The notes below the pieces were generated by a model, which saw only the letters and a list, made by a program, of their open reading frames with translations, did no database searches and was not told the origin of the DNA. Made by a program: the position numbers and the translations under genes. This document shows positions 28,301-63,232 of a DNA stretch of 64,000 nucleotides, in pieces (the first letter of the stretch is position 1; each line of letters starts with the position of its first letter). Origin of the DNA: Ruditapes philippinarum. Taxonomy: Eukaryota. Location of the stretch: positions 1-64,000 of the forward strand of contig NW_026852967.1 of NCBI RefSeq assembly GCF_026571515.1, in the 5' to 3' direction.

Positions 28301-29880
28301 TTATTGATACTGTTTGACCTCAAAAGTCAATGAAGGGATTTGTCCTCTTGTTGCAGAGGTGCCATTTTTACTATTATCATTTTGTAAGAAAAGAACTTCA
28401 AGTGGTCCAGATACGACTTTTTCTTGACCATTTTCTCCACAGAATGTATCAACTCCTGTTAGTAAGGTACATATAGTGTACTCTGTTCCTGGTCTAATAT
28501 CCACTGGTTTATCAAACAATACTTTTTCAGAAAACTTAGACTTTTCGTACATATAATCTTTAAATTGTCCTTAGATGTCATTTCAGATGTGCTATTTTGC
28601 AAACTAACTTTTCCTTGTAAACTTCCTGTTGAATTAGGAGCAAATAAACTTAAACCTAAAAGCTTACACGGAATCGAAACTTGAAAATTCAAAACGTCAG
28701 GCTTTCCACTATATCACAAACGCTTACAACGATTCGGTACAAATCTTTGTAGATCAACAATTTCTACTTTAGCCAGTCGTTTACGTGATTTTGTCTGGAA
28801 GGGGAGACATATATTACTATTTACTATTCCTGCTATAGTTTGAAATACGTACACTTTTTCTTCTGGCGTCAATATATTTTCAATGGCCACATTCTCAGCA
28901 AATGTTTTGAAAGACATTGTAGCAAACCTCACTAGATATATGAGTTCCCCTAACTCACGCCTCAGCTCTTCCCATGAATGTTCCTGTTGATCAGTTTTAC
29001 TATTACGCTGTGCAATTGCCCAGCTCTTGCATGCATCATACACATTTAATTCGTTAGCACAAAGTTCATCTGATTCAATAATTTTCTTTAAAACTTCTTT
29101 GGAAATAGTCGAAAAACCGTCTGATTTTAAGGCCGTTTCAGCGTTCTGCATCACAAACTTTAAACATCGGTTTTCCAAATCATCTTCGTGAAATTCAATA
29201 GCATGTTGCAATATTGTAAAGACATTTTCGCAAGACATATTTGTGTTGAGGAACTTTCGACAGGCTCCTTTAAGACGCTCCAGTTCATACTTCTTTGAAC
29301 AGTATAGTAGAGCCATAACATTATTCTCGTCAACGCAGCATTCTTCCGTATAAATGAACCTTTATAATAAAAGATTGATAAAGTGAATAAGTAGCATAGA
29401 AATTTCGTTAGATTGGCATAATATTGCAATATTTGTATGAATCTGTGGCTTATCTAACAGTCAACAAATGATATTTATTGCAATTTCATTATATTACAAT
29501 GCAGAATTGTAAGCCATTGGTATGTTAGATGCAGATGTCTCTACTTCAAGCAGGATTTTTTTTCTGTCAAAACTGTTTACAAGCTGCTGTAATAATTTTA
29601 TAAAAGTAAAGCAATTAAAATACCTTAACAAATCGAGGAATATAGCAGGTTCAATATCAGGAACAGGTATGTGATTGGTCTCTGGAAGTGATCCACAAAA
29701 CATTGTAAAGAAGACTGGACTTCTACTTGCTAAAATAAATCGGTGTGCCATTATTTTTTCTTCCTTTTCGCTCCCCACTAGAAAAGTGATGTCGCAAAGT
29801 CTTTCATCCTGCAACATTTGCCAATTGGTTTCTTCAAATGATCTCATAGATTGCCACGAAGTTCCTTTTGAGCACGTCAT
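28301..29880 (-). pseudogene. BTB-BACK-PHR gene copy A with an in-frame TGA and a frameshift in the PHR domain (could still encode a 300-aa BTB-BACK protein)
   Basis: Exons 29880-29624 and 29359-28301. BTB motifs CDITFLVG and AHRFILASRSPVFFTMF, plus a BACK domain. TGA at 28716-28714. An extra AT near 28553 shifts the frame. The PHR C-terminal motif NGTSATRGQIPSLTF is still recognisable. Confidence 0.85.
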
Positions 29881-36110: not shown

Positions 36111-36597
36111 AACATTGTAAGCCTAAATTTTAACGGCAGACACCGCGCTGTCTTGTCCTGTAGTTTTATTATTTTTATATTATTCATATATTAAAATTTA
36201 AATGGCATTCCTTTTTAGTATATTTTTAGTACATTTTATTATTATTGTTTAGTATAAATCTTAACTAAGTATCAGCTTATTACACTTCTATATCTCAACT
36301 ACAGGTGTTGTCTCAAAAATACACCTTTGAAGATAAGAAAATACACCTATATTTCTTGGTCAAGCAGATAAAAAGCATACACTCTTCTCCCCTTATAATA
36401 AATAAAACGAACATGTATTTGTAAATAGTTTAACACTTTATTTTATGCGGGACAAGAACACCGAAACAATCAGTATATAAAAAATCGTTAATGAATTATG
36501 ATGTTATACTCTTTCTAATTCCAATGAACCAGTTATGATTGGAAAGTATGATCAGTCATTTATAAATCTTGTTCAGAAAAAGTATGTTACTAATGAA

Positions 36598-37868
36598 AGA
36601 ATAGCCCCAACCATTACCATATTGATCTGCTCTAAATCGTTTCAGTTCAACAACTTCAGTTTTAAATTGTCTTCTTGGTATTGATGGAAACGGAAAAGAT
36701 GTTTTCTTGCTAGCTATTCCTGCTATAGTTTGAAATACGAACACCTTTTCTTCTGCCGTCAATATATCTTCAATGGCCACATTTTCAGCAAATGTTTGTA
36801 ACGACATTGTAGCAAACCTGACTGAATATATGAGGTCCCCTAACTCACGCCTTTGTTCTAGCTCTGAGCCCTCATGTTTATCACTTTTACCATTACACTG
36901 TGCAATTGCCCATTTCTTGCATGCATTGTATACACACAATTCATCTGCATTAAGGTTATCTAATTCAATAATTTTCTTAAAGACTTCTTTGGAAATAGTT
37001 GACAAACCATCTGATTTTAACACATTTTCAGTGTTCACCATCACAAACTTCAGACATCGGTTTTCTAATTCATCTTCGTCGAATTAATTCGCATGTTGTA
37101 AAATTGTGCAAACGTTGTCTGAAGAAATATTTGTTTTCAGGAACTTTTGACATGCTTCTTTGAGACGCTCCAATCCTTACTTCTTTGAACATTATATTAG
37201 AGCCATTACATTATTCTCGTTAACGCTGCAGCCTTCCGTGTAAATAAACCTTCAAAGGGTCATTATAATTTATAAATTCAACAACATTGTAGTATTTTGA
37301 TATCGATAAAATATTGTTATATTTATATGCGCTCTTGACTTCTCTGATAATCAACATGGAATATTCGCTATGCATTTTTATAAACATACCATGCAAAATC
37401 TTAGTGAATATTATTTTGTATGCAGTCTAAGCCTAAATCTTCAATCAAAAGTGACATTTTTGTATGTCAAACATGTTTGAAACGGAACGTTAATACTATT
37501 TTTCACACAAATATATTCAAACATTTCCTAGTATATTCAACCAAAAGTTCGCAAAGTTAATTCTTATGACGACTGTAAAAGTACTTCTATAAAAATATTC
37601 CTAAATACCTTAACAAATCGCGGAATATAGCAGGTTCAATATCAGGAACATCAACTGTTTTATTGGTCTCTGGAAGTGATCCACAAAACATTGTAAAAAA
37701 GACTTGGCTCCTACTTGCTAATATAAATCGCTGCGCCAATATGTTTTCTTCCTTCCCGCTTCCTACAGAAAAAGTGACGTCACAAAGTCTTTCATCTTGC
37801 AACATTTGCCAGTTAGTCTCCTCAAACAATCTGTTGGATTGCCATGCAGGTTCTTTTGAGCTTTCCAT
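36598..37868 (-). pseudogene. BTB-BACK-PHR gene copy B: pseudogene, 3'-truncated
   Basis: Exons 37868-37609 and 37249 to about 36600. In-frame TAA at 37194-37192, 37179-37177 and 37086-37084. Homology ends at GNGWGYS, the start of the PHR domain. Confidence 0.9.
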
Positions 37869-40459: not shown

Positions 40460-43400
40460 GGATCAGGGGATCATCTAGATGTGCACATACTATAATATTC
40501 ATTGAACAGAAATAAAGGGATACCGATCACGTTAGATGACCAGGGTATCATCTACATGTAAATTTATTCTTTCTTATTACGGAACAGATATATGGGTATC
40601 ATGTAAGCTGACCAGGGGATACGATCTATATGTACACATACTTTAGTATTCATTGAACAGATATAAGGAGATCACGTAATATGACAAGTGGGTCATCTAG
40701 ATTTACATAAACTATAGTTTTCATTTGGAACAGATATCAGGTGATCACGTAAGTTGACCAGGGAATCATCTTAATGTACATATACCGTACTTTTCATTGA
40801 ACAGATATAAGGGGATCACGTAAGATGACCAGTGGGCCATCCTGATGCTACATATACTATATTTTGCATTGAACAGATATAAGTGGATCATGTTAGATGA
40901 CCATGGGGTTCATCTAATTTTACAGATATACTATAGTTTTTATTGAACAGAAATTAGGGGATCACGTAGATGACCAGGGGATCGTCTAAGATGTTGCATA
41001 TAGTATAAGATTCATTTGAACAGATATCAGGGGATCACGTAGATGACCAGGGGAATTATCTACATGTATCTACTCTTTCTAATTATGGAAAGGATATATG
41101 GAGATCACGGATAAGATGACAAGGGGATCAACTATATTTAAGATTTACTATAGTATCAAATTGAACAGAAAATAAAGGGATCACGAAAATGAGCAGGGGA
41201 TCATCTACATGTACATTATTCTTTCTTATTATGGATAACAGATATATGGTCTATCATGTAAGCTGTCAAGGGGATCATCTAAAGATGTACATGAACTCTT
41301 TCTTATTATGGAAGGGATATTAAAGGGATAACGTAAGATGACCAGGGGATCATCTTAATTTTACATAATGTCTATATTTCATTGAATAGAAAATAAGGGG
41401 ATCTTGTAAGATTGACGATAGGGAAATCATCTAGATGTTGCATATACTGTTAAGTTCAATTGAACAGATTATAAGGGTGATCACATAAGATGACCAGGGG
41501 ATTCATTCTACATGTACATATCTCTTTCTAATTATGCGAACGGATATACAGAAATCATCGAAAGATGACAACGCGGTTAAACTATATCAAAATTTACTAT
41601 AGTATCCATTGAACAGAATTAAAGGGATCACGTTAGATGACCAGGGGTCATTTAGATGTACTTATATGACTTTCATATTTTGGAGCAGATAAATGGGGGG
41701 ATGATTTTAGCTGGACCAGGGGATCATCAGATTTACATATACTATAGTATGTCATTGAATAGATCTTAAGGAGAATCACGTTAAGATGACAAAGCTGATC
41801 GTCTATTATTACATTATACTATAGCATTCATTGAACAGAAATAAAGGTGATCAACGTGGTAATGAGCAGGGGATCATCTACATGTACATTTTCTTTCTTA
41901 TTATGGAACCAGATATATGGGTATTATGTTAAGCCAGACCAGAGGGATCATTCAGATTTACATATACTATAGTATTCATTGAACAGATCAAGGAGATCAG
42001 TAAGATACAAAGGGATCGTCTATATGTACATATACTATAGTATTCATTGGGATCACGTAAGATGACCAACGGGGATCATCTAGATGTACATAATACGAGG
42101 GGTTGTTCAAAAATAGTAATAGGAATGAGCAGTCTTGCATATTCATATTCCATCCCAATCCTAAAATACTTTCATTATGTATCAGTGATCGGTAAAATGT
42201 TTTTCTACAATGTATGCATAAGTTTATTTCATATTATTGTGATGAAAGGGCGCGTTTCCCTGTGATACTGAATAACCATGGTAACACGCACCGGCGCGCA
42301 CAATTAAAAATAGTTTATTAAAGCTATGTTGTACTTCTAATCAATTCATAATTATACTCCGGTTTGTTCCATAATATTCCACCAACACATTTCCTTCATA
42401 TTGAAATGACATTATATCTAAATTTGACGTCATTCAGGCATGAAATGGCATAATTATTTAGTTTTGAACAGCTGTGCGGTAAATGTAGAAAATATGGCAC
42501 TCAGTAAACAAACGAAACTTAAATTAAATTACTGTTTGATCGTTAAATTGTGCCAACGAATTGGCAAATATTCTTACAGATACATACAAAATGATAAAAT
42601 TAAGTAAGGAAAATTATTCTGCCATCAGGACACTCGTTTTCAGCTGGTACAATCAATTTAAAAACGGCGAATACAAAATCTCTAATAGGAAATTGTGAGA
42701 ATGAAAGCGGAAAATTGACGGGACGTTAGTGACGTTAATTGCAAAAACGCTGTAAATGGATCGACGGTAAACGGTACGCGGACTGTTCCGCGCACTCTTT
42801 TTGTCTGCTTCGCGATCTACTTAAGTTTTCACCAAAGAATTGTATATAAAACCATTCTATCAAACACTATTTCATTGTCTCTCATTGGATTATACTTGCA
42901 GTTTAAATAAATTGATATAATAATGATTTAACGGTAATGATTTAGTAGTATTTTCCCCCAATTTTATTTTAATAGATGATACTTTTCATTATACATATTG
43001 TTATTTTACTTAAATATAATCATATTGATTTAAAAACGTATGATGTGAAAAATAATAACATAAATCAATTTTGCATAATTTAGCATTAAAAGTCCATGCT
43101 TGTTGATTTCCCAGTTTACTCAAAATATTCGAGAAAAGTGGAGAATGGCCAGCTATCGGGCATTTTTCTTGGAGAGTTGAACGAAATTGTGATCGGTTTC
43201 TTTCTCGATAAATCTCCACATATGAGACATGATCATATGAACATGATTCAATCACCAAGAGCACTAGGAAGAATACTTTCAAGATGGATGACACTTGTTA
43301 TATTTGCATTTAGTTAACGACGTCATGAAAGTCATTTTCTGTATTGTCAGCGTGCGCCGAGTTTCGTACCCCTTGTCATTTGAAAAATTCAAAAAATTGT

Positions 43401-44050
43401 TATTTGTAAACATTTTGTATTGATTTTTTCACTTTATATAGAGATCATGTTCCGATATTTGTGTCTTGTAATGTTATGTACGTAAATAAACAAGTGTGAA
43501 CAGTAGAGCTACAGTCCTATTACTTTTTGAACAACCCTCGAACAATAGTATTCAGTTTGAACAGAAATAAGGGAATCACGTAAGATGACCAGGGGATCAT
43601 CATTAGATGTACACATTACTATAGTATCATTGAACAGAAATAAGGGGATCACGTAAGACGAGAGGGGATCATTCTAGATGTACATATATATAGTATTCAT
43701 TGAAAAGAATAAGGGATCACGCAAGATAGGCAAGGGTATCATCTAGGATGTACATATACTATAGTAATTCATTGAAAAATAAATAGGGGATCACATAAGA
43801 TGACCAGCAGATCATTCTAGATGAACACATGTATAGTTTTTCATTAAACAGAAAGAAAGAGATCAGGTAAGTCGGTCATCTATGTGTACAATCATTCTTT
43901 TTTCATTATGGAACAGATATGAGGGGGTAGTATCGCGTAAATGGATCAGGTTGATCATCTTGCCATGTTACATAATTATACTATAGCTTTCATTGAACAG
44001 AAATAAGGGGATCACGTGAGATGACCAGGTTGGTCATCTAGAATGTATAA
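40460..44050 (-). repeat. 71-bp satellite array, left arm (interrupted at 42096-43540)
   Basis: tagatgtacatatactatagtattcattgaacagaaataaggggatcacgtaagatgaccaggggatcatc units, with many 1-nt indels. Confidence 0.9.
42096..43540 (+). mobile_element. Degenerate Tc1/mariner element nested in the satellite
   Basis: TA|CGAGGGGTTGTTCAAAAATAGTAATAGGA … TCCTATTACTTTTTGAACAACCCTCG TIRs. A relic of the mariner N-terminal HTH (RTLVFSWYNQFKNG) lies near 42628-42670. The right TA is not preserved. Confidence 0.78.
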
Positions 44051-44061
44051 ATAATATTTTT

Positions 44062-44290
44062 GCGTCCGTGGGCCAAGTGGTTAAAGGTCGTTGACTTCAA
44101 ACCACTTTGCCCCTCACCGCTTTGGGTTCGAATTCCGACAGGCGGACTTTGAGATTCTTTCATGTGATGAAGCTATCCAGCTTGCTTACGGAACGTCAGT
44201 GGTTCTTATCAGGTGCCCGTTCGTGCCTGAAATAATGCACGGAAGGGTACCTGAGGTCGCCCTCCACCAGTAAAGCTGGAACGTCGCGAT
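44062..44290 (+). mobile_element. Family-1 tRNA-derived SINE at the symmetry centre of the foldback element
   Basis: A box, B box GGTTCGAATTCC and a body nearly identical to the copy at 48020; it lacks the 3' tail. Confidence 0.85.
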
Positions 44291-46980
44291 AATCTTACGT
44301 GATCCACTTATTTCTGCTCAATGAAAACTATAGTATATGTACATCTAGATGATCCTATCGTCATTTTACGTGATCCCATCAAATCTGTTCCATGTTGAAA
44401 ACGAGTATGTGCATCTACATGATATCCTTGTAATCTAACGTGATCCCCTTATTTCTGTTCAATGATAACTATAGTATATGTACATCTAGATGATCCACCG
44501 GTCATTTTACGTGATCCCCTCATATATGTTCCTTAATATAAAAGAGTATATGAACATCTACATGATCCCTTTGTCATCTACGTGATCCCCTTATCATCTT
44601 ACGTGATCCCTTTAATTCTTTTCAATGAAAATTATAGAATATGTACATCTAAATGATCCCCTTGTCATTTTACGCGATCCCCTCATATATGTTCCATAAT
44701 GAAAAAGAGTATGTACATTATATGATCTCCTGGTCGTCTTACCTGATCCCCTTATTTCTTTCTCTTTAATGAAAACTAAAGTATGTGTTTATTTAGATGT
44801 ACCGCTGGTCATCTTACGTGATCCCCTTTTTCTGTTTAATGAATACTATAGTATATGTACATCTAGATGATACCTTTGTCATCTTACGTGATCCCTTTAT
44901 TAAATGTATTTGTTCCATTATAAAACAATAGAATATGTACATCTACATGATCCCCTTGTCATTTTACGCCATCCCCTCATATTTGTTCCATAATGAAAAG
45001 GAGTATGTACACATAGATGATCCCCTGGTCGTCATATCTGATCTCCTTATTTCTTTCTGTTTAATGAAAACTAAAGTATGTGTCCATCTATATGATCCGC
45101 TGGTCATCGCACGTGATCCTTTTATTTCTGTTCAATGAATATTATAGTATATGTACATCTAGATGTTCCCCTGGTCATCTTACATGATCCCCTTATTTCT
45201 TTTCAATGCAAACTATAGTATATGTACATCTAGATGATACCCTTGTCATCTTACGTCCCCCCTTATTTCTTTCAATGAAAACTATAGTATATGTACATCT
45301 AGATGATACCATTGTCATCTTACGTGATCCCCTTATTTCTGTTCAATGAATACTATAGTATATGTACATCTAGATGATCCCCTTGTCATCTTTCTTGATC
45401 CCCTTATTTCTGTTCAATGAATACTTTAGTATATGTACATCTAGATGATCCCCTTGTCATCTTACGTGATCCCCTAATTTCTGTTCAATAAATACTATAG
45501 TATATTTACATCTAGATGATACCCTTGTCATCTTACGTGATCCCCTTATTTCTTTTCAATGAATACTATAGTATATGTTCATCTAGATGATACCATTGTC
45601 ATCTTACGTGATCCCTTTATTTCTGTTCAATGAAGTCTATAGTATATGTACATCTACATTATCCCCTTGTCATTTTACGCGATCCCCTCATATATGTTCC
45701 ATAATGAAAAAGAGTATGTACACATAGATGATCTCCTTATTTCTGTCTGTTTAATGAAAACTAAAGTATGTGTTCATCTAGATGATCCGCTGGTCATCTT
45801 ACGTGATCCCTTTTTTTTTTCAATGAAAAATATAGTATATGTACATCTAGATGACACCATTGTCATCTTACGTGATCCCCTTATTTCTTTTCAATGAATA
45901 CAATAGTATATGTACATCTAGATGATCTGCTGGTCATTTTACGTGATCCCCTTATTTCTTTTCAATGAATACTATAGTATATGTACATCTAGATGATACT
46001 ATTGTCATCTTACGTGATCCCCTTATTTCTGTACAATGAATACTATAGTATATGTACATCTAGATGATCCCCTTGTCATCTTACGTGATCCCCTTATTTC
46101 TGTTCAATGAATACTATAGTATATGTACATCTAGATGATACCCTTGTCATCTTACGTGATCCCTTTATTTCTTTTCAATGAATACTATAGTATATGTACA
46201 TCTAGATGATACCCTTGTCATCTTACGTGATCCCGTTAAACGATGTATTTGTTCCAAAATAAGAAATATTATATGTACATCTAGATGATCACCTGGTTAT
46301 ATTACGTGACCCCCTTATATCTGTTCAATGAAAACTATACTATATGAACATCTAGGTGATCCCCTTGTCATTTTACGCGATACCCTCATATCTGTTTCAT
46401 AATAAAAAAGAGTATGTACATCTAGATGATCCCCTGGTCATCGTACGTCGTCCCCTTATTTCTTTCTGTTCAATTAAAACTATATTAAATGTACATCTTC
46501 ATGATCCCCTTGTCATCTACGTGATCCCCTTATCATCTTACGTGATCCCTTTAATTCTTTTCAATGAATACTATAGTATATGTACATCTAGATATTCCCC
46601 TTGTATTCTTACATGATCTCCTTACATCTGTTCCATAATAAAAAGAGTTTATGTAGATTAGATTATCCCCTTGTCATTTATTTGATCCCCTTATATATGT
46701 TCCAGAATGAAAAAGAGTATATACATCTAGATGTCACCTGGTCATCTAACGTGATCCCCTTATGTCTGTTCAATGAAAACTATAGTATATGTACATCTAG
46801 ATGATCCCTTGGTCATTTTATTTGATCCCCTTACATCTGATATGTAATGAAAAAAAGTTTATGTACATCCAGATGATCTTGTAATCTTACGTGATCCCCT
46901 TATTTCTGTTCCATGATAACTATAGTATATGTACATCTAGATAATCCCCCGGGCATCTTACGAGATACCCTTATTTCCAT
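44291..46980 (+). repeat. 71-bp satellite array, right arm
   Basis: Unit agatgataccattgtcatcttacgtgatccccttatttctgttcaatgaatactatagtatatgtacatct; period measured at 45301, 45372 and 45443. A second subtype carries tatgttccataatgaaaaagagtatg. Confidence 0.95.
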
Positions 46981-48019: not shown

Positions 48020-48294
48020 GGGCGTCTGTGGCCGAGTGGTTAAGGTCGTTGACTTTAAACCACTTGCCCCTCACCGCTGTGGGTTCGAATCCCAACAGGG
48101 ACTTTGGATTCTTTCAAGTGAGGAAGCTATCCAACTAGCTTACGGAACGTCGGTGGTTCTACTCAAGTGCCCGTTCGTGCCTGAAATAATGCACGGAAGG
48201 GCACATGAGGTCTTCATCCACCAGTAAAGCTGGATATCGTCGCGATATGACCTATACTGTGTCGATGTGACATAAAACCCAAAACAAAAACAAA
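48020..48294 (+). mobile_element. Full-length family-1 tRNA-derived SINE
   Basis: A box TGGCCGAGTGG, B box GGTTCGAATCC and (AAAAC)n tail. Flanking GAATCGTACA/GAATTGTACA is a possible TSD. Confidence 0.9.
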
Positions 48295-49069: not shown

Positions 49070-49150
49070 GGTATCTCGTGGCCACGACTTAGCTATCTCG
49101 TGGCCACGAGATAAATAAAAATACACACATGTCACCTTTGTGCGACCGCA
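49070..49150. mobile_element. Terminal fragment of a DNA element with 22-bp ATCTCGTGGCCACGA repeats
   Basis: tatctcgtggccacgacttagc followed by tatctcgtggccacgagata (palindromic core); it lies at a junction between two SORD-derived blocks. Confidence 0.5.
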
Positions 49151-49154
49151 AAAA

Positions 49155-50116
49155 AGTCAAAGGACCATACTTCTGTCAAACAATAAACAAATAGATCATA
49201 AAATACCAAATACTTGATGACGAACATTTTTTTAAAGTTTGGTTGAAAATTTAGGGATATTGCACATAGAAGAAATCTGCTGTGCATTTACCTGATGCCG
49301 ATCAAAAATCTAATTGTCAAAGAACTCTGCTGGTCAAAGAACTCTGTTGGAATTACTTTTTAAATGTATCTTTACTTGAAAGGATACATAATGTAACACA
49401 TTTCCCGCGCAAGTAAACCTGTTTTGATTATGATCAAATTAAAGATTTTGTCGAAAAAACCCTTAAACTTGCTTCACAGTTTTGGGCTACACATACTGTT
49501 CTTACAAACTCGTCTGACGTGGACTCTGTCGTTTAAGAAATTCACAGTATCATGGGAAAACCATTGAATGTACAGGGAATAACTTTTGCCAACGATTAGC
49601 TATAATGGTAAAATATGATAAACAAGATCAACAAGGAAAGGCGTAAGTATGGGCCATTGTTTTTTTTTTTGTTTTTTTTTTTGCATATCTCCTTGTCTAT
49701 TAAATAAAAGATTACTTTTTGTACGAACGTTACACAGTAGATTTTGTATATCCTGCATAAAAAGCGAGTCGCCCGCGAATAAAGCTGTGAAAATATTTTA
49801 ACATAGTCCTTCATAATTGAAACCTTAAAGATATGTCTTACTTTGCCAATTGTCAAGATATTACAATTTTGATACCTATATATGTGAACAACTAAAACGA
49901 ACTACGTACGTATTTTGGAAGTATATATTATACAAATAGTTTGAATTTACTCAATTTAGTTAATTTGATTGTATTTGTTATAACTCAAATGCTCTTAAAG
50001 TATTTAGATAATTGGTCACAACGAAGTTGATTAACTTTGAAATAATTGAGTAACATAACAGTCTACAATACCAGGTGGTTGTGTTGTTATAGTGGTGCAT
50101 GGGGCAGACGAAGTAA
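49155..50116 (+). pseudogene. Second SORD-derived fragment (intron 6, exon 7, start of exon 8)
   Basis: Exon-7 copy at 49445-49607 with a TAA and a deletion; exon-8 start at 50062-50116. Confidence 0.82.
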
Positions 50117-50766
50117 CCCTGCAGGCACATCAACGTTGTTTCAACGTTGAATAATGGTCAGATTTCAACGTTGAAATAAGGTTGGATTTATATTCGGATT
50201 TGAAAGTTTAAACAACGTTGAAATTTCAACGTTGATACAACGTTGCAACTTCAACGTTGGCACAACGTTGAAGTTTCAATGTCATTTCAACGTTGAAAAC
50301 CCACCATACTTTGATTTTAGGATATAAAGCAAAGTAACCGAGTTTAACAAAATATCAAGACAATATTAAATACTTCATATATTTTATTTCAAAAATACAG
50401 TTCAAGTGCAGCTTAAATTCACTATAATACTCAACAATTAAGCTCTTTTCTTTTAGATCTTTCTGGGTATGATGGTGTTTGAGTACTTCTTTGGCTGTCT
50501 CTTACTGCTTCTGCAAATAAAAATAAAAAGTTTGTAGTTAAAATTGACTTAGTCAACTTCAAATTCTATATATAATTACTCATCTTAGTGATTTGTTTTT
50601 ATCTTTAAATGCTTATCTCTAAGATTTACATCATAAAACAGCTTAGCATAGAAATTGACACATAGCTTAGTTTCATACTGACAGCAAATACTGTACATAA
50701 AACAACAAAATCTTTTTAAAAAAGAAGCTATTTAAAAGTCTCACCTATGATTGGTAAGAAAAACTG
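50117..50766 (+). mobile_element. Insertion beginning with clustered CAACGTTG repeats (one-ended DNA element)
   Basis: Present here but absent from the paralogous block at 60421-60450. About 9 CAACGTTG palindromes in 50130-50300. Confidence 0.65.
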
Positions 50767-51665
50767 CTTTTCAGGGTTTTCAATTATCTACAGAGATATA
50801 TAACTTGTTTTAAACTAGCGATCCTTCATGACTAATGATTTTCGGATTTGCGACGAAACGGTCAAAATAAAAAGTAAAGAGTTTGTTGTCGATATTGGGG
50901 TACGAATGTTATATTTTCAATAAAACTGGTTTATGACTCAAGTAATAATTTCCTGCGATTTCTTCGTCCATAACAGGTATGGCCATCAGGATATCGAATA
51001 AACCATGCAATACGACGTCTGATGAAAATTGATGTTTTGTTGTACGACATGAGGGACACTGTTAATCTATTCGATTTGCAGAGTATCCTGCCAATACCTA
51101 AAATTGTTGCCGACATGCTGTGATCAAGAAGAACCAAAATATGCTTCATAAATAGGGGTCATATGAAACAGAGAGACAAGTAAATACCTCTTCAATTATC
51201 CAATCTTTAAATCAGTGCACGTGATATAAAACGATGGCCAATATCACAATACCAAAACTTTTGTGTTGACTTCCGTTGAAATATTCCAACAAAATTTCCC
51301 AAGCATATAGCATGTATAGGCAATATACAAATTTAGTTTAACACGCAGCCAGTGTGAAATATGTTAAATATATATTTCTAAAGAAATTCTTACATGTGAT
51401 AATACAAGTATCTGAAATCTTGTTATATACGTGACTATCAGTTACTTTAATGATAGCATATAAATGCACGAGTATTTACAACACATCCCTTCAGGTTTTA
51501 CAATTGTGTTATCGCAACATCTTAGACCGACATAATATTGAAAAAACAAAACAATTTTAAGCAATAAATAAAACAAAAATGTAAACTACTTCAGTCTACG
51601 TTGTGGTGTTAGAAACATATTAATACTACATCTTCATAGAAAAACTTTTCGATATTAATATTTAC

Positions 51666-52035: not shown

Positions 52036-55000
52036 TTCGATATTAATATGCAACACACAATAACATGAATCATTTTGTCTTTATTAAATATTATAACGCA
52101 TAATGTACATCATGTATTCAAGAAATACAAAACAAAAAACTGATGATGTTTGATTTGTGTGCTTGTGTTGCTGATATAATATATCATATGATACGATATT
52201 TTTCTAGCGGCTTTATCTAATGCAATATTCAATGAGGTCATGAATATATGAGCTTGTTTTCAAATACGATATATTATTAAATACGATATTTAATTACTAA
52301 GTGTTTTCTATCAAAATATGCTTAAAATATAGATATTCGTGCAAGACTTGCTTATGAAGTATAATTTAGAATATTTTGTTATATTTGAGTTATATTTTCA
52401 ATTCAGTGTAATTATACAAGAGAAAACACAAAATTACAATTTATCTGTTTTCTTTTTCTTGATATAAAATCGAGAAAAGTCCTGTATATTACATACGGGA
52501 AATGGGAGCCTATAATTAAGATGTCGATATTTCCACCCATGGGCAATTGATTCGAGCTCTTATTGGTACTTGAATATTCCACATATGGCTCTGAAGAATC
52601 GAAATAGAAAACAATTGATTTGTTAACAGACTAAAATGTAATTTTAAAAACTGCCCATGATTGAATCGTTTTAAAAAAGTATGCTACAGTTACATATAGG
52701 CATAATAACTGTATACGCGAATCATTTCAACTTGCATGGTTTTAAAATGATAACAAAAACAAATTGAGATAGGTGACGCCCAATTGTTTCGCATGAAAAA
52801 CTTCATATTTCTATAATCATATTGTAAAATCCATGATAAGTTAAAAGCCAATAAAACTGTGCATGGTGTTTTGACATAATGTTATTATTTCGATTTTAAA
52901 TATTGAAATATTATGAAGTTTGGAACTATTATTCCGTTGTTTTTTCCAATTATCTACAGAAATGTAGCGATCCGTATTGACTAATGATGTCCGGTTGTTT
53001 TGTGCAGAAAAGGTCAGAATGAAAATTACAATTTTGTGATATTGGTGTTCGATTCTCATAATTTAAAAATAAAGTATGTTTAATGACTGTAATAATTATT
53101 TTCCTTTAATTTCTTCGTCCATATAGGGTATGGCCATCAGCCTATCGAATAAACCTTACAATATGACGTCTCGTTAAAATTGACGTAACGTTGTACGACA
53201 TGTAATTTTCTTTGTTTGAGAGTAGCGAATAAGAAGAAAATTAATTTCCCTGAATGTAATGAGTGACCGCTAGGTGTCGCTATTCGTATAATTTTTGCAC
53301 GTGCAAAATTATCGATTCAATAGTCATTCAGCTTTGGACAGTCAGACTGACCTGTACGCTTATTTTAAATTTTTAGCAAGGTTTTCATATATTGTGGACC
53401 AACATTATGTATAAATGATATTTCAAGTTTTTCATATAGATGTGACGTAATCGTATAAAGTAATATTGCTAGTATTTCATTTAAGTATATTTATCAGAAA
53501 TAATGATATTATAAATGATTACGTGTTTTGCAAAATTGTTAAACATGTAAAAGTCAAGTTTTACTGTATTATTATACAATAATAAGGTTGTATGATGTCA
53601 TATTATAAGTGTTCATCTGACTGTCTAGACGCTTACTCAAATACAGAATTTGTATTGCAACTAGTTGTTGTTTTATATTAAAACAGTTTTAGGTATAGTC
53701 ATACTCTTATGTAAGGGAAGGAATAGTATAAAGGAAATGAGGGATACTGTCATTTTATTCGATTTGCAGAGCATCCTGCCAATTCCTATAAATTGTAAAC
53801 GCAATGCTTTGACCAAGAAGATTCCAAATATCCTTCATAGAACTGAGGTAAAAAAAAAACAGAGGGACAAGGCAATATCTCAACAATAATCCAATCTCCA
53901 AATCAGTACGCGTTAACAAACACACGACCTTATACCAATAATAAAATACCAATCATTACTCGTGTCATATATCACTTTCTACGGTGCAACACTTATACCA
54001 CAATATCGGACTTTGCTTGTTGACTTCCCTCGAAATATTCCAACACATTTTCGAAACATATATAAAAATGATATATACGCAACCAGAATCAACAATGTTA
54101 ACCATATAGCTGAAAAGAAATTTTTACATATGATCATACAAATATTTAAAATTTTATTAGATATATACTTTTACTGAATGAATATTTAAAGTGTTTTTGA
54201 ATGAAATTTTTTATCGCAAAATCTGCTTGTACCTACATAATACTAACTAAACCAATTTTTAAAGCTGCATTTGTTACATTTCATAAAAGCAGAAATAGCC
54301 ACTTTTCGTTTATAAAATGGGTTTCATATCAATTTTCTCTCTTATTTTGGTGTTCAGACGACCAAGGCGAGTTTGATTACCGTAAATATATGCAGCCTCC
54401 TGGTGGCAAAATTGACATTGCATGAGAAACTCCAACTTTGTGTTATTCGAACAGAAAATCAACATACGTGGTTGGTGCCTGTGCTGGTGCCTGTGCTTTT
54501 TATAGTCTTCTTTTGCATGTTACAAGAAAAATATTACATACATTCGTATGTAATATAGGTACGATTGCATACTACTTTTTGTGAAGACTTTATGTTTGCT
54601 GAATTAAAGGTGTAATGTAAAATGAACAAACATGTCATGAGATATTTTATATCTTTAAACATTTTCATGGAATGTAATAAATGTATCATCATATTAAAGT
54701 TGCATGCCTTCAGATGAGAAAAATGATTTCAAGAAAATCAAAATATGAAAAGAAAATTCACGGTCAATTGACTGCTTTGAAGCATAATCACAAAATAAAA
54801 TTACAGGAAATTAAAAAACCTTTTTAATACACTTAAGGTAGAATTTCATTGTAAATCATAGTCACAGATTTGAGATATTATTATTTATTCATATTAACAT
54901 CATTATTGGTTATATATTGATAAAAAAAACGAAAGACACAGTTTGTAAATATTTATTACAATAAAATATGAAAAAGGTATTTTCCATCCTATGCGACGCG

Positions 55001-56021: not shown

Positions 56022-57801
56022 TTAATGTTGCTTTTTGATCTCGAAAGAGAATGAGTGGAATTGTCCTTGTGATTGAGAAGTGCTATTTGTACTTTTAACG
56101 TTGTTTGAGAATTCAACTTCAAGTGGTCCTGAAACGACTTTTACTTTCCCATCACTTCCATAATATGTACTCGCACCTCTAAGTAAGGCGATTATAGTGT
56201 ACTCTGTATCTGGTTCAATATCTACCGGTTTGTCAAACAAAACATTTCCATAATACTTTGACACTTCATACACTACCTTTATATTATTTTCAGATGTCAA
56301 TATAGATGTGTCATTTTGCAAACTCATTGTACCTTCTAAAACATCCTCCGAATTATAAGGAGCAAACAAACTTACACCTACAATCTTACATGGAATGGAC
56401 ACTTTGAAGTTCAAAACATCGGGACTTCCGCCGTAGCACCATGTCTGGTGATAATTCGGTCCAAATCTTTGTACTTCTACAATTTCAGTTCTAAATTTTC
56501 GCTTTTTAGATATTGCTTGAAACGGAAATGATGTTTTCTTGCTAGCTATTCCTGCAATAGTTTGAAATACAAACACTTTTTCTTCTGAAGTCAATATATC
56601 TTCAATGGCCACATTCTCTGCAAATGTTTGGAACGACATTGTAGCAAACCTCACTGAATATATGAGGTCCCCTAACTTACCCCTTTGTGCTAGCTCTGAG
56701 CGCTCATGTTTATCACTTTTACCATTACACTGTGCAATTGCCCATCTCTTGCATGCATTGTATACACATAATTCATCTACAATAAGTTCATCTGATTCAA
56801 TAATTTTCTTAAGAACTTCTTTAGAAATAGTAGACAGACCATCTGATTTTAACACCATTTCAGCGTTCTCCATCCCAAATGTAAGACATCGGTTTTCTAA
56901 ATGAACTTCGTCGAATTGAATTGCGTGTTGCAATATTGTACAAACGTTGTCGGAAGATAAATTTGTGTTCAGGAACTTTTGACATGCTTCTCTGAGACGC
57001 TCCAATCCATACTTCTTGGAACAGTATAGTAGAGCCATTACATTATTCTCGTTAATGCTGCAGTCTTCTGTGTAAATAAACCTTCAAAATTAATAATAAT
57101 TTTAATTTATTGAATAAATTCAATTGCATTGTTATATATTAAAATTGGTAGAAACTAGAAACCTATAATATTGTAATAAATTTATATTTATATTAGCTCT
57201 GGACTTCTCTCACAATCGCCAAAAACATGTAGAAGCCTAAAGCTGAAGTCTAATTGGATCAAATATATTTCTTTTCTTGTCAAACATACTTAAAGTTGGT
57301 GTTTTTCAAACAAATATATTCTCTTTTTACTGGTCTTCTTTTACGTCGTACCAACACAGTAAAGGTCATCTGGCGACTTTTAAGCTTTACTGGTGGAGAA
57401 AGACCTCGGACCCATGCATTATTTCAAAAAATTATATTCAAGGATTTACAGGTATATGAAACATTTTTAATTCTTACGACGGCTGCGAGTGAGGAGTGTA
57501 TTTATAAATCAAAGTATTTGAAGAAAAATATTATGAAGTACCTTAACAAATCGCGGAATATAGCAGGTTCAATATCAGGAACATCAACTGTTTTATTGGT
57601 CTCTGGAAGTGATCCACAAAACATTGTAAAGAAGACTGGACTCCTACTTGCTAATATAAATCGGTGCGCCATTATTTTTTCTTCCTTCCCGCTTCCTACA
57701 AGAAATGTGACGTCACAAAGTCTTTCATTTTGCAACATTCGCCAGTTAGTCTCCTCAAACAATCTGTTGGATTGCCACGCAGGTTCTTTTAAGCATTCCA
57801 T
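56022..57801 (-). CDS. BTB-BACK-PHR protein (BTBD1/2/3/6-like Cullin-3 adaptor), copy C, intact, 439 aa
   Basis: Exons 57801-57542 and 57081-56022 (1320 nt, phase-2 intron at DLLR/FIYT). BTB, BACK and PHR (WCYGGSPD…FDKPVDIEP…TNSTSQSQGQF) are all in frame. Confidence 0.92.
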
Positions 57802-59261
57802 GCTTGTTGGGTTTTGACTCAGCAAAAAAATGTGTAATATCTACAAGAAAAATATGAACGATAATTATCAAAACAATCGATCGTGCAAAGATTACGTTAA
57901 TTGTTAAAACTAAAACACGAACAAACAAACAAACAAATGGAAAAAACTTTGTGCATCAAATCATTTCTGTACGAATGCCTTGTTCTCTTAACGATTGTTC
58001 TTAGTAGCCCAAAGGATTTATTTATTGATAGGTGAGACCCTTGGAAATTATATTGGACCTCTCCCCCACTAACTTAATAATGTGCCCGATCAAGTGCATA
58101 TACTGAGTGAAAATCAAAATATGTTTACATTTTGACAATTTCTTTCAATTTATAATTCATTTCGCATAAACGATAAATAACTAACAATACCCAAGTGAAT
58201 TTATATAAATATACATCGAAATAAACCTTCAGCGTTCAATTTATAAAAGGAGTGTATTTTAAGCAGATAAATAATTTATCCTTAACAATGTTCAAGATCA
58301 ATTATTATAACACCCAGTCTTTTGAAATAATGAGTCAATTCAGTTCAATTTGACAATGAGAATAATGAGCATAATGTCTCTTTAAGATGATATTATAAGA
58401 TTACCAATTGTTTAAAGAACTATCAATTCCTTACACTTATACACAGTATTTAATTTAGAAAACAAGTTACACATCACTGCTCAATGACAGAATGAAGCAA
58501 ATGTTAACATAATTCTTTATATACTCCGAACATTTTTTTTAAAAAGCTTCAAAACATAAAAGAAGAAAAAAACTAGTTTACGCTTAAATTGAAGAAAAAA
58601 TATGCACCGCTTATACATTATGTTCAAAGGTATCTTGTTTACCATTATTTTGTACTGATTATGGGTAAGTTACCGCTGTGTGGAGTTACATACAAAGCTG
58701 TACATTAATTCTGATACCTAAATTGTATAAAAGGCGATTATTTATTTAAAGGTTTGCATGTATCGACATGTATCTTTATGTATCTATTTCAAACTCAAAC
58801 AAACAAACAAACAAATATGATGCTGACTTTATAATGTGATATGGTACGCTCAACATTAAAACACATGCGATATCAAACTATTAATACGATTAAACTCTTA
58901 AACATTACATATATTTCGTGATATTAAATTTAATAAGAGTAAGTTACCTTCAACTCAGTATGACATAGTTTAAATACTTTAACATAAAAGAGAAGCTCTA
59001 TATTCACTTACTTGTGTAATAAAGACTGAAAAAATGTTATCAATCTGTATTTATAATCTGTATCCCCCTTCTAGTTTAAATAATTGCTTTTGTGTAAATC
59101 TAATCTAAGTCCACCTTTTGGAAAACATTGAACTTCCGGGTCGTTTTGATAAACTGCATATCGATCGGTGAACTATAGTGGTTGATTTATGTCATGTATT
59201 TTCGCTCCACTGGGCGCCAGACGAAGACACGAGAATACGAGAACCACTTGCCCCTCATCGC

Positions 59262-60431
59262 TGTGGGTTCGAATCCCGCCAGAGACTTTGGGACGTTATT
59301 CTGCTAACTTACGTAACATCGGTAGTTCTACTCAGGTGCCTGAAAAAATCCTGAAAAAAGCACCTGCTGGGGGTTTCCTCCCTAGTACAGCTGGAACGTT
59401 GTCACAATATGACCTACGTAAAACGTAAAAACGTAATAAACGCCAAAAAAGCGTCCGATATAGAGTAAAGGACGAAAAAAGTAATGGTTTTTCGTCAATA
59501 TAACACATAAGAAAAAGTAAAAGGACCATATTTCTGTCAAACAATAATCAAATAGATCATAAAATACCAAATACTTGATGACAAACTGTCTGTGAGTTTG
59601 GTTGAAATTTAGGGATATTGCACATAGAAGAAAACTGCTTTGCAAAGCCGTTTACCTGATGCCGATCAATAATCTAATTGTCAAAGAACTCTGTTGGAAA
59701 TATTTTTAAATGTATCTTTACTTGAATGTATCACATTTTCCCGTGCAAGTAAACCTGTTATGCTTATGATCAAATAAAAGATTTTGTCGAAGAAACCTTT
59801 TAACTTGCTTAACAGTTTGGGACTACACTACTGTTCTTACAAACTCGTCTGACGTGGACTCTGTCGTCAAAGAAATTCATAGAATCATGGGAGAAATGTC
59901 TGACATAACTATTGAATGTACATGGAACAATTTTTGCCAACGATTAGCTATAATTGTAAGCATGGGGGATTGGTTTATTGACATATCTCCTTGTCTTTTA
60001 AATGAAAGATTACGTTTTGTACGTGCCGGACGTTGCACAGGAGATTTGGTATATCCTGCATAAAAAAGGAGTCACTCTCGAATAAAGATGTGATGTTTAA
60101 ACATAATCCTTCATAATTGAAACTTAAAAGATATGTCTTACTTTGCCAATTGTCAAGATATATTACGTTTTTGATTCCTATATATGTGAATAACGAAGAC
60201 GAGCTGCGTACTTTTTTGCCAATATATATGATACAAATAGTGTGGATTTATTCAATTTAGTTAATTTGATTGTATTTGTTATAACTCAAATGGTCTTAAA
60301 GTATTTAGATAATAGGACACAACGAAGTTGATTAGCTTGAAATAATTGAATAATGGTATTTTTCCCATTACAGTCTACAATACCAGGTCGTTGAGTTGCT
60401 ATAGTGAGATATGGGGCAGAAGAAGTAACTT
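59262..60431 (+). pseudogene. Third SORD-derived fragment (intron-6 SINE, exon 7, start of exon 8)
   Basis: The SINE at 59262-59430 plus its flank matches 25310-25800. Exon-7 copy at 59781-59955 with stops; exon-8 start at 60374-60431. Confidence 0.85.
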
Positions 60432-61539
60432 TTTCAGGATTTTCAATTATCTACAGAGATGTAGAACTTGTTTTAGACTAGCGATCCTTCTTGACTAATC
60501 ATGTTTGGATTTGCGTGGAAATGGTCAAATAAAAAGTAAAGCGTTTGTTGTTGACATTGGGGTACGATTTTAATATTTTCAATAAAACTGTGGTGTATGA
60601 CTCAAGTAATGATTTCCTGCGATTTCTTCGTCCTTATATTGTATGACCATCAGGATATCGAATAAACCATACAATACGACTTCTGATGAAAATTGATGTA
60701 TTGTTGTACGATATGAGGGATACTGTAATTTTATTCGATTTGCAGAGCATCCTGCCAATTCCTTAAACTTGTTGCCGCCATGCTGTGATCAAGAAGAACC
60801 CAAATATGCTTCATAGAACTGAGGTCCTAGGAAACAGAGAATCAAGTCAATACCTCGTCAATTATCCAATCTCTAAATCAGTACACGAGATATAAAACGA
60901 TATTTACGATCTTACGCCAATATCACAATACCAAGTGTTGACTTCCGTTGAAATATCCCAACACATTTTCCCAAGCATATAGACAATATAGTTTAACACG
61001 CATACAATGTCAAGAAAAATGTTAAATATATATTCCTAAAGAAATTCTTACATGTGATAATACAATTATCTGAAATCTTATTATATACATGATTGTCAGT
61101 TACTTCAATGATAGCATATAAATGCACGAGTATTTACAACAAATCCCTTCAGGTTTTACAATTGCGTTTTTGCAACATCTTGGACAGACATAATATTGAA
61201 AAATCAAATTTTAAGCAATAAATAATACAAAAGAAACAACTTTGAATGAAATTTAATTTTAAATTGTTTCTCATTCCAAGTTTCATTCAACTTCAATTTC
61301 TATAACATAACACGCCTTTGCTATGCAGAAGTGTCAACGCTCATCGGTGAAATGTTGACAAATACATTTTTTATTCATACGCACGAATTCTTGTCAAAGA
61401 CGTTGTTTCAAGTTTTCACAAAGTTGACTTACAATCTTCAATAATAAAGGTAAACGATTTTTGCATATGAGTGTGATAACATCACTAGATCTGCACAAAA
61501 GATATGTGCAATTGTATACCATTCAAATTAATGTTGCGG

Positions 61540-63232
61540 TTAGAACTCGAAAGTAATCGAGTGGAATTGTCCTCGCGTGTCAGATGTTTTATTTGTACTA
61601 TTACCGTTGTGTGAAAATACAACTTCAAGTGGTCCTGAAACGACTTTTACTTTCCCACCATTTCCATAATATGTTTTCTCAGCTTTGAGTAAGGCGAATA
61701 TGGAGTAAATTCTTTCTGGTTCAATATCGACTGGTTTGTCGAACAAAACAGTTTCATAATACTTTGACACCCCATACATTATCTTTATATTCTTTTCCGT
61801 TGTCAATACAGATGTGTCATTTTGCAAACCAATTGTGCCCTCTAAAATACCTGCCGAACAAGGAGCAAACAAACTTACACCTACAATCTTACATGGAATG
61901 GACACTTTGAAGTTCAAAACATCGGGATGTCCGCAATAGATCCAGTGCTGATAATAATTCGGTCCAAATCTTTGTACTTCCACAATTTTCGTTCTATAAT
62001 TTCGATTTTTTGATATTGCTTGAAACGGAAATGATGTTTTCTTGCTAACTATTCCTGCTAAAAATTGAAATACAAACACTTTTTCTTCTGGCGTCAGTAT
62101 ATCTTCAACGGCTACACTCTCTGCAAATGTTTGGAACGACATTGTAGCAAACCTCACTGAATATATGAGGTCCCCTAACGCACGCCTTTGATCAAGCTCT
62201 GAATGCTCATGATTATCACTTTTACTATTACACTGTGCAATTGCCCATTTCTTGCATGCATTGTATACACATAATTCATCTGCAATAAGTTCATCTGATT
62301 CAATAACTTTCTTTAAAACTTCTTTAGAAAGAGTAGACAGACCATCAGATTTAAACACTGTCTCAGCGTTCTCCGTCACAAACGTAAGGCATCTGTTTTC
62401 TAAATCAACTTCGTCAAATTGAACAGCATGTTGCAAAATTGTACAAACGTTGTCGGAAGAAATATTTGTGTTAAGGAACTTTTGGCATGCTTCTCTGAGA
62501 CGCTCCAGTTCATACTTTTTTGAACAGTACAGAAGAGCAATTGCTTTATGTTCATTAAGACTGCAGTCTTCCGTATAAATATACCTTCAAATAATTACTA
62601 TAATTAATGCAATAAATTCAACAACATTGTAGTATTTTGATATCGATACAATATTAATAATTTTAATACTTATATGAGCTCTTGAAAATAAACATGAAAT
62701 ATTATCTTTGCATTTTCATAAACATACCATACAGAATCTTAGTGAGTATTATTTTGAATGCAGTCTAAGCGTAAATCTGCAAGGTCTACTTCAATCAGTA
62801 ATTATTCATTTGCGTGTCTAACATGTTGAAAACGGGAAGTAATTACAGATTTTTCAAACAATTATTTTTAAAAATTTCCTAGTATATTAATTTCATCCTA
62901 AGTTCACAAAGTTAATTCTTTTGACGGTTGTAAATAAGGATCAAAGTATTTGAATAAAATATTGTAAAATACCTTAACAAATCGCGGAATATAGCAGGTT
63001 CAATATCAGGAACACCAATTGTTTGACTGGTCTCTGGAAGTGATCCACAAAACATTGTAAAGAAGACAGGACTTCTGCTTGCTAATATGAATCGGTGCGC
63101 CATTATTTTTTCTTCCTTCACGGTTCCTACAAGAAAAGTGACGTCACAAAGTCTTTCATCTTGCAACATTCGCAGGTTTGTCTCCTCAAACAATCTGTTG
63201 GATTGCCACGCAGGTTCTTTTGAGCATGTCAT
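61540..63232 (-). CDS. BTB-BACK-PHR protein, copy D, intact, 434 aa
   Basis: Exons 63232-62973 and 62584-61540 (1305 nt). The stop is 4 codons earlier than in copy C; the old CAA CAT TAA is still visible downstream. Confidence 0.92.

What the first reader, a model, noticed from the sequence alone, without database searches (positions are those of the whole stretch)
56022..63232. BTB-BACK-PHR paralogues diverge in the PHR substrate-binding domain while framework DNA stays identical
Seen (hand alignment of C vs D): 10 differences in 86 aa in the BTB exon, versus 42 in 144 aa in the PHR region. The differences cluster in patches (HQTWCYGGS/YQHWIYCGH, YNSEDV/C-SAGI, RGAS/KAEK, STSQSQ/KTSDTR), while a 67-nt framework stretch (56358-56424 vs 61861-61927) is identical even at silent sites. 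Known: BTB-BACK binds Cullin-3 and the C-terminal domain selects substrates; nematode F-box and MATH-BTB adaptors show this pattern under positive selection. Inference: a birth-and-death array of diversifying ubiquitin-ligase adaptors, possibly intracellular defence receptors.
Basis: partly seen in the sequence, partly recalled or inferred. Interest (0 to 1): 0.7.

Follow-up and report, generated by a model that had tools for sequence, protein, structure and literature searches.

The report
Clam ubiquitin adaptors with fast-changing loops
A clam carries a row of duplicated genes for protein-disposal adaptors, two working and two broken, whose likely target-gripping loops have changed much faster than the rest of the protein, probably by selection at a few positions; what they grip, and whether they serve defence, is unknown.

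Summary
The window encodes four BTB-BACK-PHR copies: C and D intact, A and B broken. C is identical to a protein named for Ruditapes philippinarum. C and D differ at 10 of 86 residues in exon 1, 44 of 291 outside PHR and 40 of 142 in PHR, at similar dS. The PHR domain as a whole is not positively selected: dN/dS is 0.64, against 0.29 elsewhere. The excess sits in five loops (1.12; rest of PHR 0.41). These loops are the most conserved part of PHR in canonical BTBD1/2 and BTBD3/6 and the most variable in venerid paralogues. Codon-only site tests were not significant. Mixed codon/protein tests on 11 paralogues and sites chosen in Mercenaria point to dN/dS above 1 at about 2% of sites. The 68-nt identical tract is unremarkable. 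Alleles are not hypervariable in the loops, and nothing links the genes to defence. Verdict: a known adaptor family with an F-box-like evolutionary pattern that my searches did not find described for PHR.

The parts
57542..57801 (-). Copy C, coding exon 1 (ATG to BTB residue 87)
   Evidence: ATG and GT donor; Pfam BTB E 1.1e-15; spliced product equals P0001
56022..57081 (-). Copy C, coding exon 2 (end of BTB, BACK, linker, PHR, stop)
   Evidence: Pfam PHR E 4.5e-23, BACK E 9.5e-11; 100% to P0001
56040..56468 (-). PHR domain of C, residues 292-434
   Evidence: model pLDDT 96; Z 23.8, rmsd 1.4 over 149 residues to 3no8; dN/dS 0.64 vs D
56421..56462 (-). PHR loop 1 (294-307); candidate selected sites 298, 300, 302, 304 alternate with the conserved W301, Y303, G305
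   Evidence: per-site table; M8 posteriors 0.88-1.0
56340..56363 (-). PHR loop 2 (327-334), with a one-codon indel between C and D; candidate site 331
56250..56270 (-). PHR loop 3 (358-364), the least variable of the five in venerids
56148..56177 (-). PHR loop 4 (389-398), variable around conserved T392, G395, G398
56061..56102 (-). PHR loop 5 (414-427), variable around conserved N419, T421, G426, Q427; candidate sites 420, 423, 424
56357..56424 (.). 68-nt tract identical to 61860-61927; encodes the two core strands between loops 1 and 2; not significant on silent sites
   Evidence: P=0.035 overall, P=0.43 silent-only; strands
59012..59031 (-). 3' end of a probable non-coding first exon of C (GT donor at 59011); its 5' end was not determined
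   Evidence: one contig of run X1 joins 57815 to 59031, with letters that differ from the window, so a related allele or copy; donor motif and a homologous stretch upstream of B
62973..63232 (-). Copy D, coding exon 1
61540..62584 (-). Copy D, coding exon 2 with PHR; intact, 434 aa in all
   Evidence: Pfam PHR E 1.7e-18
36556..37868 (-). Copy B, pseudogene: exons 37868-37609 and 37249-36556; in-frame stops at 37194, 37179, 37086; homology ends inside PHR loop 1
28301..29880 (-). Copy A, broken: exons 29880-29624 and 29359-28301; stop at 28716 in PHR loop 1 and a frameshift near 28555
   Evidence: an intact relative P0003 differs at 54 of 426 compared residues
59242..61232 (.). Duplicated flank between C and D, with a stray copy of a zinc-dehydrogenase exon (59764-60051); also present at 49151-51578 with no BTB gene found beside it
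   Evidence: self-BLAST and tblastn

Best explanation
A lineage-specific tandem family of BTB-BACK-PHR Cullin-3 adaptors evolving by birth and death. Shown: segmental duplications made at least four copies here, two of which died; BTB-BACK (dN/dS about 0.3) and the PHR core (about 0.4) stay under purifying selection, while five PHR loops change at or above the neutral rate. Inferred from homology: BTB-BACK binds Cul3 and holds the PHR sandwich out towards a partner. Inferred from strand topology and from conservation in canonical orthologues: the five loops form one binding face. Inferred from site models: after duplication, selection favoured changes at roughly 2% of sites (298, 300, 302, 304, 331, 420, 423, 424), between fixed scaffold residues, so that each paralogue grips a different partner and delivers it for ubiquitination. 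The partner is unknown; the divergence is between paralogues rather than between alleles.
For: Equal dS with unequal dN (PHR dN 0.164, dS 0.205; rest dN 0.078, dS 0.238). Fixed-class ML, C vs D: 0.29 outside PHR, 1.12 in loops, 0.41 in the rest of PHR; loops vs rest p=0.0011. Loop codons: 20 amino-acid changes, 2 silent-only, of 51; outside PHR 44 and 35 of 291; p=0.0023. PHR diverges more than residues 102-262 in 55 of 55 venerid pairs but in 3 of 45 canonical BTBD3/6 and 24 of 78 BTBD1/2 pairs (pairs not independent). Loops vs other PHR classes, mean pairwise difference: 0.27 vs 0.38-0.50 and 0.33 vs 0.41-0.57 in the canonical sets, 0.47 vs 0.33-0.38 in Mercenaria, 0.42 vs 0.17-0.31 in Ruditapes. 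The same sites vary in both clams (Spearman 0.45). Sites chosen in Mercenaria alone give C-vs-D dN/dS 0.89, 1.33, 1.72, 2.83, 2.73 at five rising thresholds; the 19-site set has LRT 8.3, and 2.55, one-sided p=0.008, with multi-base changes modelled. Mixed codon/protein M8 vs M8a: LRT 20.1 on 11 venerid sequences, 13.7 with multi-base changes, 8.6 without the two rows with loop indels; 0 of 15 null simulations exceeded 7.0. All 7 sites with posterior above 0.8 lie in the loops. Fold matches 3no8, 3hwj, 3gbw at Z 22-24.
Against: Codon-only M2a vs M1a is not significant (p=0.18 for C,D; 0.32 for C,D,A). Loop dN/dS 1.12 does not differ from 1 (p=0.33) and falls to 0.81 with A. The first threshold tried (0.7) gave only p=0.037, 0.10 with multi-base changes; with A included the 19-site set drops to 1.57, p=0.057; five thresholds were tried. 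The mixed test is non-standard, written by me, and its neutral scale rests on one DNA pair; one null simulation reached 7.0, above the 5.3 of the Ruditapes-only test. 10 of the 20 loop changes are multi-base. Weak mosaicism (P=0.09 DNA, 0.047 protein) can inflate site tests. The loop set was drawn after I had seen alignments, and no atomic coordinates were available, so burial and co-location were not measured. Canonical sets were picked by a loop-1 motif; without residues 299-312 the contrasts are p=0.0075, 0.053 and 0.054 (interaction p=0.0014). Btbd6 binds Plzf through BTB, not PHR (10.1101/575910). Cul3 binding and any substrate are untested.
Confidence: 0.6

Rival explanations
1. Relaxed constraint: the copies lost the ancestral partner or became redundant, so the exposed loops drift at the neutral rate while folding keeps BTB-BACK and the PHR core conserved. 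No new specificities are being selected.
For: Loop dN/dS 1.12 (grid interval 0.72-1.75) includes 1; codon-only site tests not significant; 2 of 4 copies are dead; low read depth (0-4.5) over C and D in two RNA runs, about the level of non-repeat intergenic bins; among 17 distant non-canonical sister pairs, loops exceed the rest of PHR in only 6 (these pairs are near saturation).
Against: dN/dS rises with the independent Mercenaria threshold to about 2.8; M8 beats M8a in 5 of 5 data sets with multi-base changes modelled (LRT 5.3-13.7); scaffold residues inside the loops (W301, G305, T392, G395, G398, N419, T421, G426, Q427) are invariant in 11 of 11 venerid rows; the allele pair P0162/P0002 keeps the loops identical while differing at 11 of 190 residues in 102-291, which fits constraint within a paralogue.
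Confidence: 0.3
2. Gene conversion homogenises BTB-BACK among neighbours (and made the identical tract), so PHR only looks fast.
For: Informative sites among B, C, D split 13 BC, 13 CD, 2 BD of 28, with mild clustering (P=0.09); P0162 is mosaic between C and D (P=0.047); alleles differ more in BACK than in PHR (11 of 190 vs 2 of 142, p=0.048). Some conversion is likely.
Against: Conversion would lower dS in BTB-BACK, but dS is 0.238 outside PHR and 0.205 inside; the tract lies inside PHR and is not significant on silent sites (P=0.43); the loop-vs-core contrast is within PHR. Exon 1 alone has lower dS (0.13, interval 0.05-0.26).
Confidence: 0.05
3. One reading: intracellular defence receptors that recognise parasite or viral proteins and are in an arms race (a sub-case of the best explanation, not exclusive of it).
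For: Analogy only: C. elegans F-box genes show purifying selection on the F-box and positive selection on the substrate domain, with a suggested link to immunity (PMC8120010, passages). Birth and death plus selected loops fit. One D-like variant in three runs changes two loop-1 residues (Y298S, Q299E), allele or further paralogue unknown.
Against: No allelic loop diversity in P0162/P0002 or in three clusters of other non-canonical members (0 PHR changes among 3 and among 4 sequences, 4 scattered ones among 7). BTB/POZ genes as a whole are under-represented among dispensable mussel genes (observed minus expected -26.3, FDR 0.021; PMC7653742 Table S53; not PHR-specific). The BTB gene reported in a clam Vibrio study is a zinc-finger type (PMC9125321, passages). 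No tissue or infection data were obtained.
Confidence: 0.25

Closest known systems
BTB-BACK-PHR (BBP) family: human BTBD1, BTBD2, BTBD3, BTBD6 (PMC1257465, passages)
   Same: Domain order BTB, BACK, PHR; BTB best PDB match is human BTBD6 2vkp, E 3.9e-22; PHR fold matches BTBD2 3no8 at Z 23.8.
   Different: Not an orthologue of either canonical clade: venerid copies form their own clade on a BTB-BACK tree (support 0.80-0.84) and lack the canonical loop motifs. Canonical genes number four to seven per genome (PMC1257465) with conserved loops; these are multi-copy with variable loops.
Tandem BTBD6 expansions in vent snails (56 and 35 copies; PMC7736800, passages)
   Same: Molluscan tandem expansion of BTBD6-like genes.
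   Different: That paper reads the expansion as neural adaptation; the passages I saw hold no per-domain selection analysis. Whether the snail and clam expansions share an origin was not tested.
Nematode F-box (and, recalled, MATH-BTB) adaptors under positive selection (Thomas 2006, as cited in PMC8120010; original not read)
   Same: Works like it: conserved cullin-side domain, fast substrate-side domain, tandem duplication and loss.
   Different: Different substrate domain (PHR); signal confined to about 2% of sites with domain dN/dS 0.64; no excess allelic polymorphism seen in the little allele data available, whereas C. elegans F-box substrate domains are highly polymorphic.
PHR1 domain of MYCBP2/RPM-1 (3gbw)
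   Same: Same fold (Z 22.3, rmsd 1.8, 147 residues). A review describes a flat, conserved surface likely to mediate protein interactions (PMC4806438, passage).
   Different: There the surface is conserved. That it is the same face as the five loops is recalled from the structure paper, which was not held.

Membership tests
BTB-BACK-PHR (BBP) family | N-terminal BTB domain | tested here: met
   Pfam PF00651 in all four exon-1 frames, E 3e-12 to 1e-15
BTB-BACK-PHR (BBP) family | BACK domain after BTB | tested here: met
   PF07707 in all four copies
BTB-BACK-PHR (BBP) family | C-terminal PHR beta-sandwich | tested here: met
   PF08005 in C, D and the shifted frame of A; fold Z 23.8 to 3no8; lost in B
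BTB-BACK-PHR (BBP) family | Binds Cullin-3 through BTB-BACK | not testable with these tools
   No clam Cul3 sequence held. The region aligns with BTBD6 and SPOP and with Cul3-bound KLHL11; the Cul3-contact motifs are recalled, not tested
Canonical BTBD1/2 or BTBD3/6 orthologue | Groups with a canonical clade on a BTB-BACK tree | tested here: not met
   separate venerid clade of 16 of 162 tips
Canonical BTBD1/2 or BTBD3/6 orthologue | Conserved clade-specific PHR loop residues | tested here: not met
   positions 302, 304, 420, 423-425 nearly fixed in canonical sets, variable here
Positively selected birth-and-death cullin adaptors (nematode F-box type) | Tandem duplication and pseudogenes | tested here: met
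   4 copies, 2 broken, duplicated flanks
Positively selected birth-and-death cullin adaptors (nematode F-box type) | Purifying selection on the cullin-side domain | tested here: met
   dN/dS 0.29-0.33 outside PHR
Positively selected birth-and-death cullin adaptors (nematode F-box type) | Sites with dN/dS above 1 in the substrate-side domain | tested here: inconclusive
   not significant on codons alone; significant in mixed models and at Mercenaria-chosen sites; leans positive
Positively selected birth-and-death cullin adaptors (nematode F-box type) | Excess polymorphism in the substrate-side domain within the species | tested here: inconclusive
   one allele pair: 2 of 142 in PHR vs 11 of 190 in 102-291; one two-residue loop variant in reads; 413 variant rows were not shown
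Intracellular defence receptor | Expression in immune tissue or induction by infection; foreign ligand | not testable with these tools
   runs are coded, without tissue labels; depth low

The most novel reading that the evidence does not exclude
The PHR domain serves molluscs (and perhaps other invertebrates) as a re-programmable recognition module: a fixed scaffold with a few hypervariable loop positions, multiplied into a repertoire of Cul3 adaptors that tag parasite, viral or transposon proteins for destruction, as F-box and TRIM families do elsewhere.
Probability: 0.22. Interest if true: 0.75.

Novelty: new variant of a known kind. Interest (0 to 1): 0.45.

Why it matters
What the PHR domain binds, and with which surface, is poorly known: one canonical member needs its C-terminus for TOP1, another binds its substrate through BTB. 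Here evolution marks candidate specificity positions (298-306, 329-331, 420-425), conserved in canonical orthologues and variable in clam paralogues, which makes the binding face directly testable by loop swaps. If the partners are foreign, it adds an intracellular recognition family to the immune repertoire of farmed bivalves. If the loops only drift, it is an ordinary decaying tandem array.

Tried and rejected
No whole genome was held, so copy number and presence/absence could not be counted. The metagenome scan gave 1 locus from 378 pattern matches, 30% identical, not used, so DNA was available for the four window copies only. A second homologue search with D's C-terminal part returned only 3 known proteins among 66 candidates. 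Read laying showed 40 variant rows and hid 413, so no pN/pS could be computed; no C or D splice joint was among the 15 joints shown (21 hidden). Codon-only M2a vs M1a: not significant. Identity tract as a sign of conversion or of an RNA element: rejected on the silent-site test; no RNA folding was run. Viral structure library: no match above TM 0.48, nothing usable. Distant PDB matches to carbohydrate-binding modules (Z 9.6 and below) are the common jelly-roll and show no function. Mya arenaria cluster rows were too fragmentary to use. The PHR structure paper was not held. Three look-ups of earlier scan findings returned nothing. No complex prediction was run. Rows left out: B for PHR tests (domain lost); P0011, P0013, P0014 (A, a model with a deletion, B), P0012 and P0015 (outer branch) from the venerid rate sets; P0002 replaced by its full-length cluster mate P0162; 2 of 11 and 3 of 13 canonical rows with truncated PHR.
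Full report
What is there. Self-comparison and tblastn find four BTB-BACK-PHR copies on the minus strand, each with Pfam BTB and BACK hits, and PHR in A, C and D. All have two coding exons split in BTB codon 87. C (439 aa) and D (434 aa) are intact. A has a stop in the first PHR loop and a frameshift; B has three in-frame stops and loses homology inside that loop. [quoted passage not shown] Flanks, including a stray zinc-dehydrogenase exon, are duplicated with the genes and once without a BTB gene, so the copies arose by segmental duplication. Two more Ruditapes proteins, P0003 (intact, A-like) and P0162, lie on one other 41 kb contig. Seven of eight Mercenaria hits lie on one 82.4 Mb contig; their adjacency was not checked.

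The observation. dS is similar across the gene (0.238 outside PHR, 0.205 inside) while dN doubles (0.078 to 0.164). The identical tract is real, 68 nt, but P=0.035 overall and 0.43 on silent sites, with a 62-nt twin in BACK. It codes for two core strands between loops 1 and 2 and needs no special explanation.

Domain level. With a shared synonymous scale, dN/dS is 0.29 outside PHR and 0.64 inside (different, p=0.0003; below 1, one-sided p=0.019); with A added 0.26 and 0.50. The domain as a whole is therefore under weaker purifying selection, not positive selection.

Where the excess lies. The PHR model is confident (pLDDT 96) and matches 3no8, 3hwj and 3gbw at Z 22-24. This is inference from topology, made after seeing alignments; no coordinates were available. 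C vs D gives 1.12 there and 0.41 in the rest of PHR (p=0.0011).

Control with canonical orthologues. Of the 150 best representatives (403 with E up to 1e-30), 11 and 13 carry the BTBD3/6 and BTBD1/2 loop-1 motifs. They also form clades on a tree of BTB-BACK alone (11 of 11 tips, support 0.39; 13 of 15 tips, support 0.84), and one member of each cluster is named BTBD6 or BTBD1. In them PHR changes more slowly than BACK (median ratio 0.73, 0.84) and the loops are its most conserved part; in 11 venerid paralogues the ratio is 1.53 and the loops are the most variable part. Dropping the motif residues leaves p=0.0075 and 0.053 for the canonical sets, 0.054 for Mercenaria and 0.0014 for the difference. 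Positions 302, 304, 424 and 425 differ between the two canonical clades but are nearly fixed within each, the pattern of specificity-determining positions; they are among the most variable in the clams.

Is anything above neutral? Codon-only site models on two or three sequences: no (p=0.18, 0.32). Sites chosen by variability among six Mercenaria proteins and then tested on C vs D DNA give 0.89 (73 sites), 1.33 (43), 1.72 (30), 2.83 (19), 2.73 (14); 16 of the 19 are in the loops. With multi-base changes modelled, the one-sided p values are 0.10, 0.008 and 0.038 for the last three; with the pseudogene A added, 0.49, 0.057 and 0.17. Equally chosen sites outside PHR give 0.56 (34 sites) and 0.72 (10 sites); the 3-site set gives 1.67. 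A mixed model, with C and D as codons and the others as amino acids, favours M8 over M8a: LRT 8.6 on four Ruditapes and 20.1 on 11 venerid sequences, with about 2% of sites at dN/dS 4-8; 5.3 to 13.7 over five data sets with multi-base changes. In 15 null simulations the largest LRT was 7.0. The seven best sites are all in the loops (P=0.0007 even within PHR). These programs are my own, the neutral scale rests on one DNA pair, and mild mosaicism exists. I take positive selection at a few sites as more likely than not, about 0.6, not as shown.

Alleles and expression. P0162 and P0002 (one 90% cluster) differ at 11 of 190 residues in 102-291 and 2 of 142 in PHR, neither in a loop. Three clusters of other non-canonical members show no loop diversity either. 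A D-like variant in three runs changes two loop-1 residues. So the divergence is mainly between paralogues. Contigs of run X1 (kind not on record) match C without differences over 56075-56341 and 56358-56541, cover C's exons but few intergenic bins, and one joins exon 1 to an upstream exon, which suggests that C is transcribed; D is barely covered there. Two RNA runs give depth 0-4.5 over both genes. No tissue is known.

Mechanism. Established for the family: BTB-BACK binds Cul3 and PHR does not (10.1101/575910, passages); BTBD1 needs its C-terminal 112 residues for TOP1 (PMC9733930, passages); Btbd6 binds Plzf through BTB (10.1101/575910). Inferred here: the clam copies keep the Cul3 side and retune the PHR face, each towards its own partner. 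Defence is one possibility (about 0.25); nothing found supports it beyond analogy, and BTB genes are under-represented among dispensable mussel genes (PMC7653742, supplementary Table S53 rows).

Literature seen. Passages: PMC7736800, 10.1101/575910, PMC1257465, PMC4806438, PMC9733930, PMC8120010, PMC9125321. Term search without hits: PMC12373286. Supplement rows only: PMC7653742. Thomas 2006 and the PHR structure paper were not read. Nine searches listed molluscan BTBD6 expansions but no per-domain or per-site selection study of PHR; subscription journals and bioRxiv supplements were not visible, and supplements of bivalve genome papers may list this family.

Verdict. A real feature of a known family, with an evolutionary pattern known from other cullin adaptors and apparently not described for PHR. 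Interest 0.45.

Noticed in passing
window 25310-26477, 39691-40063, 49150-50117, 59242-60432: A zinc-binding dehydrogenase exon (Pfam ADH_zinc_N at 25813-26109; sorbitol dehydrogenase-like by recall) and its flanks were carried along with the duplications; stray copies at 49428-49611 and 59764-60051.
   Followed up: partly
window 49151-51578 and 52965-54166: Flank like that between C and D, but no BTB gene found by tblastn: probably the remains of a further duplication unit.
   Followed up: partly
window 40464-46977: Arrays of a 71-73 bp satellite; 44295-46977 is inverted relative to 40464-42049 and 43545-43871.
   Followed up: no
window 59242-59340, 57339-57426, 48022-48281, 5550-5739, 25283-25484, 44062-44291: Dispersed high-copy repeat with very high read depth; it looks like a tRNA-derived SINE (recalled); ARAGORN finds no tRNA gene.
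   Followed up: no
window 10657-12799 and 13373-15172 (minus): Two TRIM-like genes: B-box hits at 12365-12799, one NHL repeat hit in the 599-aa frame; the rest had no Pfam hit.
   Followed up: no
window 3920-6909 (plus) and 20989-26109 (plus): Exons of an aldo-keto reductase and of a zinc alcohol dehydrogenase gene (Pfam).
   Followed up: no
P0003, P0162 (41,237-base contig): A second Ruditapes contig holds an intact A-like gene and a C/D-like gene; it may be the other haplotype or a second locus.
   Followed up: partly
P0019-P0161: Most of the 150 best representatives are non-canonical BTB-BACK-PHR proteins; those looked up come from bivalves, abalone, a jellyfish and Nematostella, so divergent members are widespread in invertebrates.
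   Followed up: partly
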